A stretch of 64,000 nt of DNA from the human T2T-CHM13v2.0 reference genome, Homo sapiens. A model generated the notes under the pieces. The model made no database searches. It saw only the letters and a program-made list of their open reading frames with translations, and had not been told where the DNA came from. Of the stretch, positions 55,640 to 58,470 are shown piece after piece. The stretch lies in the NCBI RefSeq assembly GCF_009914755.1, contig NC_060926.1; one strand, given 5' to 3'. Numbering within the stretch: the stretch's first letter is position 1; every line of letters begins with the position of its first letter. Made by a program: the position numbers and the translations under genes.

Positions 55640-56100
55640 TTCACTTGCTCAAATTCCACTCTAACATCCAAGTGAGCCTTCCTATATTATAGTGGCTGAA
55701 AATTTGAAAATGAGCTTTCCTGGGGTTCCTTGCAGCTATGTTTCAGATGTAATTCTGTTTCCACCAATCAGATGTGCCGATACCTCACTTGCTTTTGAAA
55801 CTGCATTAATGGCAGACAAGTGATAGACATCTATTTTTCTAGCACAAATGGTCACAGCAGGATAGTCTTATAGCCAGTCGATTTGAGACATGGCAGCCTC
55901 TAACAATGGTCATGGCAGCTTTTATTATTATGATAAAAACCATGTAAGTCTGGGGGCTGGGAGTTATTTCTAGAAGCTAAGCCCAAGAATCTGCTTCTCC
56001 AGCCCTTCCAAATATTTTGTAATATCTGGTAACAAATCCTTTTCTGGTTAAACTAGAGAGAATGGTTTCTGTTATCTGCAACTGAACCCCATCCAGTGTA
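55640..56100 (+). mobile_element. Ancient ERVL solo LTR (LTR33-like)
   Basis: ccttgcagcta..tccagccctt..aaatccttttctggttaaactag..tggtttctgttatctgcaactgaacc; family from recall. Confidence 0.6.
55742..56068 (+). repeat. Inverted duplication, arm A (327 bp)
   Basis: Reverse complement of 58122-58470; 11 substitutions and one 22-bp indel by manual alignment. Confidence 0.97.
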
Positions 56101-57212
56101 ATGATGGTATCAAACATTAAATTTTTATATACACAAATACCTAGTTCTGGATATATAGTCTATTCTGTTGAATTGTCTATCTTTATTCCAGTCTAACATG
56201 ATTGAATTATTATAACTTTATAATATGGTTTAATGTGTGGCAGTCCTAGTAATTGTCTTTACTCTTTTTTACTAAAAAAAGTTTTCTTTTGGATGAACTT
56301 TAATTTCACTCTGACAATTCTCACTCGACCTGTGCTCCTTGGAGATTTTGATTCAGTATGCTATATGAAGAAACTGCTCATCCCCTGGGCTGGAGGTCCA
56401 GTTTGGGTTTACAGTGTCTTGATAGTAAATCTAGTGTACCTGTCATAAAATAATTCTAAAGACTTAAGATGGGGGTTGGGATAATAGAGTGTGATATTAA
56501 TTTTCATGGCTTTATAACCACATCTACCAAAACTGTTTTTATTTTTTATATCAAATGACTTATTAAGAGGTAAAATAAGAAAGGTCTGGACACTTCAGTG
56601 CATCTCTAATTTTGGAAATGATCAATGGTCAACAGAGGGGAGACTGTGTCTAGTAGTTTTTACAATTGTATTTATTAGGCACAGGAAAATGTAAACTCAG
56701 AGAGTCTGAGATAGAACCAAGCCTCCAGGATAAACTTCAGCAAGCCTAACCCCTTTGTTTCTCTTTTTCTTTCTAGACACTTGTAACAGCACTAATCTAG
56801 AAGTGAGTACATATGAGTTCTGGTCCTGGCTTAGCTAATTTGGGCAAACCGTTTAACTTCTTTGAGACTTAGGTTTCCATTCTAACAAGGTGTAGGTGAT
56901 AATATCCATTTTGTGCAAGGTCATTGGTTTTTACCGTATAACGTGTGTAGGTGTTACACACACTGTACCATCCCATACAAATGTGAGTTAATGTATTTTC
57001 TGTCTTTATTATCTCTTTTACCTGCCTTAATCACCAAGACATTGTGATCTGTCACTCCATCTTCTCCATTAAACTCTTCAACCATTTCTATTTTTTTTGG
57101 ACAATTACTTATCTCAGTCATCATTTCTTATAATTCCCTGTCTAACCCTACTAATGTCTGTGAGATCCTTGCCCCTCTTCTCAAGTGGTTCAACACTTAA
57201 GAATGGGGACAA

Positions 57213-57524
57213 TTTTTTTTTTATTTTTATTTTTATTTTTTTGAGATGGAGTCTCTCGCTCTGTCGCTCAGGCTGGAGTGCAGTGATGCAATCTTGGTTC
57301 ACTGCAACCTCTGCCTCCCAGATTCAAGAGATTCTCCTGCCTCAGCCTCCCGAGTAACTGGGATTACAGGCACTCGCCACCGTGCCTGGATAATTTTTGT
57401 ATTTTTAGTAGAGACAGGTTTCCCCATGTTGTCCAGGCTGGTCTCAAACTCCTGACCTCAAGTGATCCACCTGCCTTGGTCTCCCAAAGTGCTGTAATTA
57501 CAGGCATGAGCCACCACGCCCAGC
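57213..57524 (-). mobile_element. AluS
   Basis: Antisense dimer; TSD GGGACAATT. Confidence 0.95.
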
Positions 57525-58121
57525 TGGGACAATTCTTGTTATATGTTAATTTCTTAAAACCACCAAAGTCTATTCAATATATGATATAGTGATTAAGAAA
57601 TAAAGGTGTACATTGATAAAAAGTATGAAGTTTCACATATGCACATTCTTATAGCACTCATAATGGCATCTGTTAAATCTTCATCTAACTTTTAAAATAA
57701 AATGGCTTGTAAAAGCTATGAATTACTAAGCTGTGGGATGCTTTTGGGATCTCAAGTAGTAATGTGGAAGTCTAGGCACTCAGCACTGTATGGAATCAAA
57801 ATTCCAGTGGAATATGGAGAGCAGAAAGATTGGGCAGGGAGAACTTGTGAAAATTTAAACATGATTTTCAGGTTCATTTGGCAAAAAAAATTAGGTGACA
57901 ATGGATATTTTTAAAAAAACACCACCAACAAGGGCATTGCCTGGCCATAATTTATTGAGTTATTTTAACACTTTCATTCTTTGTGCTTTAGGTATTCTGC
58001 TTCCTCATACTTAAGGTAATTTTGTAAAACTTTATGGAAGAAAAAACAATGACACACACTCACACATAGAATATTTGTTTATTGCTGTTATAATAAATTA
58101 ATAAAAAACCCAAGAAACCTA

Positions 58122-58470
58122 AAACCATTCTCTCTAGTTTAACCAGAAAAAGATTTGTTGCCAGATATTACAAAATATTTGGAAGGGCTGGAGAAGCAGA
58201 TTATTGGGCTTAGCTTCTAGAAATAACTCCCAGCCCCCAGACTTACATGGTTTTTATCATAAAAATAAAAGCTGCCATGACCATTGTTAGAGGCTGCCAT
58301 GACCATTGTTAGAGGCTGCCATGTCTCAAATCAACTGGCTATAAGACTATCCTGCTGTGACCATTTGTGCTAGCAAAATAGATGTCTACCACTTGTCTGC
58401 CATTAATGCAGTTCCAAAAGCAAGTGAGGTATTGGCATATCTGATTGGTGGAAACAAAATTACATCTGAA
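58122..58470 (-). repeat. Inverted duplication, arm B (349 bp)
   Basis: Matches arm A; carries an extra tandem copy of ACCATTGTTAGAGGCTGCCATG. Confidence 0.97.

What the first reader, a model, noticed from the sequence alone, without database searches (positions are those of the whole stretch)
55742..58470. Young, ~97% identical inverted duplication of part of an ancient LTR, arms ~2.05 kb apart
Seen: 55742-56068 is the reverse complement of 58122-58470, with 11 substitutions in 327 bp by hand and one 22-bp tandem expansion in arm B. Arm B copies only the interior of the old LTR and lacks its termini. Established: independent copies of LTR33-age elements are far more diverged than this. Inference: this is a local template-switch duplication or an arm pair kept similar by gene conversion, not a second insertion. 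It would be hidden by repeat masking and is below usual segmental-duplication size cut-offs. It could mediate a ~2 kb inversion polymorphism, form a hairpin, or yield dsRNA in the region upstream of ICOS.
Basis: partly seen in the sequence, partly recalled or inferred. Interest (0 to 1): 0.75.

Follow-up and report, generated by a model that had tools for sequence, protein, structure and literature searches.

The report
Small old inverted duplication near ICOS
A 327-base piece from inside a very old retroviral LTR was copied once, upside down, about 2 kb away and 8 kb upstream of ICOS roughly 10-30 million years ago; it is real, but it is an ordinary by-product of DNA copying with no sign of function.

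Summary
Window 55742-56068 is the reverse complement of 58122-58470, with 316 of 327 aligned bases identical, 11 substitutions and one 22-base tandem repeat extra in arm B. Genome-wide, each arm's only strong match is the other arm. It is therefore neither a young repeat family nor two separate insertions.

Arm A lies inside a solo LTR of about 491 bases (about 55611-56101). This LTR starts with TG and is flanked by a 5-base direct repeat. It split a still older high-copy repeat whose two halves remain collinear on either side. Arm A is thus the source and arm B the derived copy, and an inversion with duplicated breakpoints is excluded.

Similarity falls to chance level exactly at both arm ends, and the differences are evenly spread. 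This favours one copying event about 8-35 million years ago over long-running gene conversion. A perfect 10-base hairpin spans arm B's outer junction, consistent with template switching.

The name LTR33 could not be tested; class III (ERV3) is consistent. Inversion, hairpin and dsRNA roles remain untested and look unlikely.

The parts
55742..56068 (+). Arm A, the source copy: the interior of the old solo LTR.
   Evidence: alignment. Searches show ancestral context on both sides.
58122..58470 (-). Arm B, the derived inverted copy: 327 bases of arm A plus a 22-base tandem repeat.
   Evidence: No similarity beyond either end.
58271..58323 (.). Period-22 tandem array inside arm B, 2.4 copies with 100% matches. 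Arm A has one unit fewer.
56069..58121 (.). Spacer of 2053 bases between the arms. Its first ~33 bases are the 3' end of the old LTR, followed by the right half of the older repeat.
57204..57529 (-). Alu-type masked repeat inside the spacer. It has the same orientation as the Alus at 54344-54650 and 59334-59692. The name Alu and the minus strand are read by eye and recalled.
   Evidence: direct-repeat families D1-D4; masked list.
55611..56101 (+). Old solo LTR of about 491 bases. The bounds are good to roughly +/-30 bases. It starts with TG, and its 3' end is placed by dispersed copies.
   Evidence: 3' end. Searches show about 467-483 extra bases relative to uninterrupted copies of the surrounding repeat.
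55606..55610 (.). Left copy of the candidate 5-base target-site duplication, TGATG.
   Evidence: Not significant on its own.
56102..56106 (.). Right copy of the candidate 5-base target-site duplication, TGATG.
55432..55602 (-). Left half of an older high-copy interspersed repeat that the LTR split. L1 ORF2-like by recall only.
   Evidence: Family size.
56127..56270 (-). Right half of the same older repeat, collinear with the left half and on the same strand.
58452..58478 (.). Perfect 10-base stem with a 7-base loop spanning arm B's outer junction (58470|58471). The 8 bases just outside the arm are the reverse complement of bases just inside it.
   Evidence: 11 of 4000 random window positions do as well.: -6.7 kcal/mol, z = -3.38.

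Best explanation
This is a one-off, local, inverted insertional duplication.

History, in order:
- An ancient solo LTR (about 55611-56101, plus strand) had inserted into a still older interspersed repeat.
- Much later, in the ancestry of apes or Old World primates (about 8-35 million years ago by divergence), 327 bases from the LTR's interior were copied in reverse orientation into a site 2053 bases downstream.
- Arm B then gained, or acquired at birth, one extra 22-base unit by slippage between short direct repeats.
- The two arms have since diverged independently.

Most likely mechanism: a template switch during replication or break repair (the FoSTeS/MMBIR kind). A growing DNA end left its template, copied the opposite strand of the nearby LTR interior, briefly snapped back on itself for 8 bases, and returned.

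Shown: the duplication, its uniqueness in the genome, its sharp ends, which arm is the source, and the lack of a target-site duplication or poly-A tail at arm B.

Inferred: the template-switch mechanism, the date, and neutrality (no function).
For: Identity and uniqueness:
- 316 of 327 bases are identical, with one 22-base gap.
- In whole-assembly searches each arm's only strong hit is the other arm; 5 matches, made up of self, the other arm and 3 weak ones of 48-71 bases at 79-88%; 22 matches; 4 matches; 2 matches.

Direction (arm A is the source):
- Dispersed old copies align across arm A's inner end to about 56089-56107. The 11 loci examined are 11 of the 14 LTR-type hits.
- The older repeat's halves (55438-55602 and 56127-56270) are collinear and on the same strand. 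They lie 41 bases apart in L012 and 124 bases apart in L027, against 524 and 591 bases apart in the window.
- 37 of 39 further genomic copies of that L012 stretch run uninterrupted across the insertion point (40 scored of 2361 candidates).
- Both sides of arm A are therefore ancestral, and both junctions of arm B are new.

Single event:
- Flanks beyond the arms score no better than shuffles. At least as good: 277, 159, 313 and 286 of 500 shuffles.
- The 11 differences are evenly spread. A longest identical run at least as long as observed occurs in 89% of random placements.

Mechanism:
- No direct repeat or A-tail flanks arm B (by eye).
- A perfect 10-base hairpin spans the outer junction. P = 0.00275 per position, about 0.011 after allowing for the four junctions tested. 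Its fold z-score is -3.38.

Polarity:
- At the 3 differing sites that old copies cover, arm A carries the commoner family state: 5 of 5, 9 of 9 and 8 of 11 copies.

Not an artefact:
- The CTLA4-to-ICOS gap is 62,805 bases here and 62,798 in GRCh38, from the gene coordinates printed in PMC11176074 (Methods passage). Another assembly therefore has essentially the same length.
Against: - No outgroup genome could be examined. The empty site, the date and the junction history are therefore all inferred from one human assembly.
- The hairpin lies in T-rich sequence and could have pre-existed at the target site.
- No clear microhomology is seen at the inner junction (by eye).
- Only 2 loci (L012, L027) show both halves of the older repeat directly against the window. 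In 8 of 11 loci only one half was detectable, and in 2 of 11 neither was.
- L013 shows the two halves in opposite orientation.
- The 3-of-3 polarity result is not significant (one-sided P = 0.125). The two CpG differences cannot be polarised safely in such old sequence.
- Matches in closed regions of the reference are not shown by the tool, so further copies cannot be strictly excluded.
Confidence: 0.7

Rival explanations
1. The duplication is much older, and the arms have been kept about 97% alike by repeated gene conversion between them.
For: Inverted repeats 2 kb apart can exchange sequence (established knowledge). With only 11 differences the test for conversion tracts has little power.
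Against: There is no residual similarity beyond either arm end. Any older duplication would need exactly the same extent as the converted tract. The differences are evenly spread, with no long identical block beyond chance. The 22-base length difference has not been homogenised.
Confidence: 0.12
2. It is an inversion of the ~2-kb segment made by staggered breaks, which duplicates the sequence between the two nicks at both ends of the inverted piece.
For: This model produces inverted duplicates flanking an inverted segment (recalled from work on Drosophila inversions, not read here). The hairpin at 58452-58478 could have been a break-prone site.
Against: The model needs one boundary of arm A to be a new junction. 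On the inner side the LTR's 3' end and then the older repeat's right half continue. On the outer side the LTR's 5' part and the older repeat's left half continue. All are collinear and on one strand.
Confidence: 0.03
3. The arms are two independent insertions of one repeat family, or members of a young dispersed family.
For: Part of each arm (55957-56068) does belong to a dispersed old family.
Against: No other genomic match exceeds 88% identity or 166 bases. Both arms share the same arbitrary internal end points and lack the LTR's ends. The 215 bases at 55742-55956 have no other detectable copy.
Confidence: 0.01
4. It is an assembly artefact, such as a fold-back chimera.
Against: The arms differ at 11 sites and by a 22-base repeat, unlike an artefactual fold-back. 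The CTLA4-ICOS interval differs by only 7 bases between this assembly and the GRCh38 coordinates printed in PMC11176074.
Confidence: 0.01
5. It is a DNA transposon with long terminal inverted repeats, 55742-58470.
For: The geometry fits: two inverted ~330-base ends around a 2-kb body.
Against: There is no other copy of the arms or the body in the genome. No target-site duplication flanks the whole structure (by eye). One 'end' is a piece of an LTR still sitting in its own insertion context.
Confidence: 0.01

Closest known systems
Small inverted duplications or templated insertions made by replication or repair template switching (FoSTeS/MMBIR, fold-back synthesis)
   Same: The source is nearby and the copy is inverted. 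The ends are sharp, with no target-site duplication and no poly-A tail. A short snap-back-like hairpin sits at one junction. Fold-back templated inverted insertions at breaks are described in PMC11724301, and large fold-back inverted duplications in PMC3907307. For both papers only the search listing and the start of the abstract were seen.
   Different: This is a fixed, millions-of-years-old germline event of 327 bases with a 2-kb spacer. The yeast events in PMC11724301 are mostly 5-34 bases, and those in PMC3907307 are very large. Microhomology is not evident at the inner junction.
Human polymorphic inversions flanked by inverted repeats (the HsInv catalogue)
   Same: An inverted repeat pair brackets a unique segment.
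   Different: The catalogued cases involve highly identical repeats. One likely breakpoint region is 782 bases at 99.9% identity (PMC3961182, passage seen). Here the arms are 327 bases at 96.6%, with at most 59 uninterrupted identical bases. Term searches of the main texts of PMC6748972, PMC13629690 and PMC3961182 found no mention of 2q33; ICOS was also searched in the first two and CTLA4 only in PMC13629690. Their supplementary tables were closed.
Segmental duplications as usually defined (at least 1 kb and at least 90% identity; definition recalled)
   Same: It is an intrachromosomal duplicate with more than 90% identity.
   Different: It is only 327-349 bases long, below the length cut-off.
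Solo LTRs of class III endogenous retroviruses (ERV3, including LTR33, LTR33A-C)
   Same: The host element of arm A is about 491 bases long and starts with TG. It has a candidate 5-base target duplication and has dispersed, highly diverged relatives. Table 4 of PMC5753468 lists LTR33 and LTR33A-C under ERV3, among LTRs without a characterised internal part (passages seen).
   Different: No library of repeat families was available, so identity with LTR33 itself is untested. Only the last ~133-150 bases match other copies.

Membership tests
Solo LTR of an endogenous retrovirus | A discrete insertion into older sequence, with both flanks contiguous in uninterrupted relatives of the host sequence. 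| tested here: met
   The window has about 483 and 467 extra bases relative to L012 and L027. 37 of 39 other copies are uninterrupted there.
Solo LTR of an endogenous retrovirus | TG...CA ends and a short target-site duplication. | tested here: inconclusive
   It starts with TG at 55611. TGATG is present at 55606-55610 and 56102-56106. The 3' end is decayed and does not read CA. A 5-base match is expected by chance given the freedom in placing the ends.
Solo LTR of an endogenous retrovirus | Dispersed copies sharing the terminal region. | tested here: met
   14 hits to window 55957-56089. The 11 that were fetched align at 66-87% identity.
LTR33 (ERV3 class) | Best match to the LTR33 family model or consensus in a repeat library. 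| not testable with these tools
   No Dfam or RepeatMasker was available. The indirect support is as follows. A paper uses a marker labelled with LTR33 and OAS3 (PMC8593420, one passage seen). The 46-kb OAS3 region holds one family-like match at L033:7704-7801 (66% identity over 110 bases, 45.4 bits). No match of at least 45 bits was found in 92,776 control bases.
LTR33 (ERV3 class) | A 5-base target-site duplication, typical of class III elements (recalled). | tested here: inconclusive
   The candidate TGATG pair is not significant alone.
Template-switch (FoSTeS/MMBIR-type) inverted duplication | A copy of nearby sequence in inverted orientation with sharp ends, and without target-site duplication or poly-A tail. 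| tested here: met
   and (by eye).
Template-switch (FoSTeS/MMBIR-type) inverted duplication | Microhomology or short templated stretches at the junctions. | tested here: inconclusive
   The outer junction has an 8-base reverse-complement stretch forming a 10-base stem. The inner junction shows nothing clear.
Template-switch (FoSTeS/MMBIR-type) inverted duplication | An empty target site in lineages that predate the event. | not testable with these tools
Inverted-repeat-mediated polymorphic inversion | Both orientations of the spacer present among people. | not testable with these tools
   Reads and other assemblies were off. No mention was found in the main texts searched.
Segmental duplication | Length of at least 1 kb at 90% identity or more (recalled definition). 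| tested here: not met
   327-349 bases.
DNA transposon with terminal inverted repeats | Multiple genomic copies and a flanking target-site duplication. | tested here: not met

The most novel reading that the evidence does not exclude
The arm pair may be structurally or regulatorily active in living people. One possibility is that it occasionally flips the 2-kb spacer, giving a small recurrent inversion 8-11 kb upstream of ICOS. Another is that read-through transcription, for instance from the minus-strand lncRNA that ends at 62206, folds the arms into a ~330-base near-perfect double-stranded RNA that is edited or sensed in T cells. Either would make this a hidden variable in a locus associated with autoimmune disease.
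Probability: 0.04. Interest if true: 0.6.

Novelty: new member of a known kind. Interest (0 to 1): 0.2.

Why it matters
The main value is as a clean, datable example of a sub-kilobase inverted duplication whose source, direction and junctions can be read from a single genome. Nested older repeats record the ancestral order, which is what makes this possible. Events of this size fall below segmental-duplication catalogues.

There is no evidence that it changes gene regulation.

Tried and rejected
Naming the LTR
- No repeat library was on hand.
- Whole-assembly searches with 55742-56068, 55450-56350 and 55600-55960 found no relatives of the 55742-55956 part.
- Rfam found nothing in 54500-59800.
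- Paper searches for LTR33 with ICOS and LTR33 with OAS3 each returned the same single paper, which is unrelated to this locus. A six-term search on 2q33, CD28, CTLA4, ICOS, endogenous retrovirus and repeat listed nothing that describes this locus's repeats (listing only seen).
- The OAS3-locus comparison gave one weak family-like match. I treat it as consistent with LTR33, not as proof.

Naming the older flanking repeat
- Three stop-free translated pieces of 20-26 residues were searched against solved structures. Two gave nothing. One gave a chance hit at E = 0.84 to an unrelated viral protein, which I discard.
- The L1 ORF2-like reading therefore rests on recall only.
- In the best-reading frames I counted 3 stops in 77 codons (right half) and 5 stops in 77 codons (left half), plus the one LTR insertion.

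Polarising the differences
- I first counted the two CpG sites (CpG in arm A, none in arm B) as derived in arm B. I withdrew this because in sequence this old CpG gain and loss are about balanced.
- Only 3 of the 11 differences can be polarised.

Target-site duplication
- A 5-base match is expected by chance given the freedom in placing the ends. It counts only together with the other two lines of evidence.

Collinearity of the older repeat
- In the first set of 6 loci only L012 was contiguous.
- L014 had the two halves collinear but 432 bases apart, and L013 had them in opposite orientation.
- L015 and L016 showed only the right half and L017 only the left.
- L013 and L014 are themselves rearranged relative to each other.

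Literature on function
- The main text of the CRISPRi tiling paper (PMC11176074) gives no element at this position in the passages I saw.
- The inversion papers do not mention the locus in their main texts.
- Supplementary tables of all these papers were closed and could hold a relevant row.

Other
- One search printed a useless long table through a scripting mistake.
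Full report
**1. The observation**

- The repeat finder on 54500-59800 reports two overlapping inverted pairs that form one repeat.
- A gapped alignment gives arm A 55742-56068 against the reverse complement of arm B 58122-58470. 316 of 327 columns are identical, with 11 substitutions (8 transitions, 3 transversions) and one 22-base gap.
- The gap is a period-22 tandem array of 2.4 perfect copies at 58271-58323 in arm B. 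Arm A has one unit fewer. The unit is bounded by short direct repeats, so slippage explains it.
- The spacer is 2053 bases and contains one Alu-type repeat (masked 57204-57529).

**2. Not a repeat family, not chance, not an artefact**

- Whole-assembly searches find only self and the other arm as strong matches. With arm A the other arm scores E = 2.5e-138, alongside three weak hits of 48-71 bases at 79-88%. The result is the same with 901-base queries around each arm (22 matches; 4 matches) and with 55600-55960 (2 matches). The tool does not show matches in closed regions, so this is not absolute.
- The arms differ at 11 sites and in length, which an assembly fold-back would not produce.
- The distance from the end of CTLA4 to the start of ICOS is 62,805 bases in this assembly. 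It is 62,798 bases by the GRCh38 gene coordinates printed in the Methods of PMC11176074 (passage seen). GRCh38 must therefore hold essentially the same sequence content.
- ICOS starts at window position 66652. The pair thus lies 8.2-10.9 kb upstream of it.

**3. What the arms are made of**

- Fourteen weak dispersed hits fall on window 55957-56089. I fetched 11 of them.
- All 11 align to that stretch at 66-87% identity over 53-166 bases. Nine also align to arm B.
- Their alignments run across arm A's inner end (56068) and stop within a few bases of each other, at about 56086-56107. This marks the 3' end of an old LTR-type family on the plus strand.
- Arm B has no similarity to these last bases.
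- The part 55742-55956 has no detectable relative anywhere except arm B. The five copies that reach 55957 all lose similarity to the window there, although they continue to resemble each other for about 35 more bases. The upstream part of this LTR is therefore either subfamily-specific or too diverged to detect.

**4. The ancestral context shows which arm is the source**

- Left of about 55602 and right of about 56127 lies a still older repeat.
- In L012 the homologues of 55438-55602 and 56127-56270 are on one strand, in the same order and 41 bases apart. In the window they are 524 bases apart.
- L027 shows the same pattern: 124 bases against 591.
- That stretch of L012 has 2361 candidate relatives. 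Of the 39 non-self matches among the 40 scored, 37 run uninterrupted across the junction point.
- The window therefore carries an insertion of about 467-483 bases. It starts with TG at 55611, ends where the LTR family ends (about 56101), and is flanked by TGATG on both sides. It is a solo LTR of about 491 bases.
- Results that do not fit cleanly: of the first six loci, L014 has the halves 432 bases apart, L013 has them in opposite orientation, L015 and L016 show only the right half, and L017 shows only the left. Of the next eleven loci, six show only the left half, two only the right and two neither. The cause is about 60-66% identity.
- Arm A sits 131 and 33 bases inside the LTR's two ends, so both of its boundaries are ancestral sequence. 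Arm B is therefore the derived copy and both of its junctions are new.
- This also rules out an inversion with duplicated staggered breakpoints. That model needs one boundary of arm A to be a new junction.

**5. One event or ongoing conversion?**

- Beyond the arm ends the flanks are no more alike than shuffled sequence. At least as good were 277 and 159 of 500 shuffles for 150-base flanks, and 313 and 286 of 500 for 300-base flanks. Ungapped identity just beyond the ends is 8 of 30 and 5 of 30.
- The 11 differences are evenly spread: 7 of 11 lie in the outer half (P = 0.55). The longest identical run, 59 bases, is unremarkable, being matched or exceeded in 89% of random placements.
- This favours a single discrete copying event. 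An older duplicate of exactly this extent, homogenised throughout, is not excluded.

**6. Ages**

- The arms differ by K2P 0.0346 (95% interval on the raw proportion 0.017-0.060).
- At 0.5-2.2 x 10^-9 substitutions per site per year this gives about 8-35 million years. The wider bounds are about 4-60 million years.
- By recalled species divergences this is comparable to human versus orangutan.
- At the three differing sites that old copies cover, arm A has the commoner family state: 5 of 5, 9 of 9 and 8 of 11 copies. If arm B carries most of the changes, for example from error-prone synthesis at its birth, the event is younger. Three of three is not significant.
- The LTR itself is far older. 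Identity to other copies is 66-72% over alignments of 110-166 bases. This suggests an age of the order of 100 million years. It is a rough figure, because the copies may belong to different subfamilies.

**7. Family**

- Shown: a discrete insertion, a TG start, a candidate 5-base target duplication (typical of class III elements, recalled), and dispersed old relatives.
- In print, LTR33 and LTR33A-C are listed under ERV3 among LTRs with no characterised internal part (PMC5753468, Table 4 passages).
- Whether this copy is LTR33 cannot be tested here.
- One indirect hint: a paper uses a transcript marker labelled with LTR33 and OAS3 (PMC8593420, one passage). The 46-kb OAS3 region holds one family-like match (L033:7704-7801, 66% over 110 bases, 45.4 bits). 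No match of at least 45 bits was found in 92,776 control bases.
- Naming does not need inner genes. It needs a repeat library.

**8. Mechanism**

- Arm B has no flanking direct repeat and no A-tail (by eye), so it did not arrive by transposition or retroposition.
- At its outer junction, the 8 bases just outside the arm are the reverse complement of bases just inside it. They form a perfect 10-base stem with a 7-base loop at 58452-58478.
- Only 11 of 4000 random positions in the window do as well. The other three junctions have stems of 3-4 bases.
- As single-stranded DNA the hairpin folds at -6.7 kcal/mol, z = -3.38.
- I read this as a short snap-back during a series of template switches. It could equally be a pre-existing hairpin at the target site. 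The inner junction shows no clear microhomology.
- The event belongs with replication or repair template-switch products (FoSTeS/MMBIR, fold-back synthesis). The mechanism is inferred, not shown.

**9. Does it do anything?**

- No RefSeq feature overlaps 55742-58470. The nearest is a minus-strand lncRNA that ends at 62206. Rfam finds nothing.
- With a 2-kb spacer, cruciform extrusion is unlikely (established knowledge, recalled).
- Homologous exchange between arms with at most 59 uninterrupted identical bases is expected to be rare (recalled thresholds).
- No inversion at this locus appears in the main texts searched. No element at this position appears in the passages seen of the CRISPRi tiling study. 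Supplementary tables were closed.

**10. Verdict**

This is a real and precisely described small inverted duplication. It is correctly interpreted as a local copying event and not a second insertion. It is a new instance of a known kind, is most likely neutral, and is of modest interest.

Noticed in passing
L013:809-1809 and L014:645-1653 (G000 C2:1.73 Mb and C4:141.9 Mb): A 1010-base block is 95.6% identical between two loci on different chromosomes. It is inverted relative to a neighbouring piece of the older repeat in one locus but not the other. This may be a younger duplication or a rearranged element.
   Followed up: no
G000 C1:144245285-144245337, C1:143019364-143019416, C1:121169082-121169134: Three chr1 hits to the LTR's 3' end have the same length, identity (85%) and score. 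They look like one old copy multiplied by later large duplications near the chr1 centromere (inference). These three were not fetched.
   Followed up: no
window 54344-54650, 57204-57529, 59334-59692: Three Alu-type repeats are all in the same orientation around and inside the structure. There is therefore no inverted Alu pair here. The LTR-derived arms are the only inverted repeat found in 54500-59800.
   Followed up: partly
window 55742-56068 and 58122-58470: Neither arm appears in the supplied list of soft-masked stretches of 100 bases or more. In this annotation the old LTR is not masked at all.
   Followed up: yes
L033:7704-7801 (G000 C12:112947704-112947801): A diverged copy of the same LTR-end family lies about 2.1 kb before the annotated end of OAS3. 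It may be the element behind a published marker labelled with LTR33 and OAS3.
   Followed up: partly
window 3847 to 66652 (CTLA4 end to ICOS start): The intergenic distance differs by only 7 bases between this assembly (62,805) and the GRCh38 coordinates printed in PMC11176074.
   Followed up: yes
window 56011-56032: A weak period-10 mini-repeat (2.2 copies, score 30) lies inside arm A. It is probably trivial.
   Followed up: no
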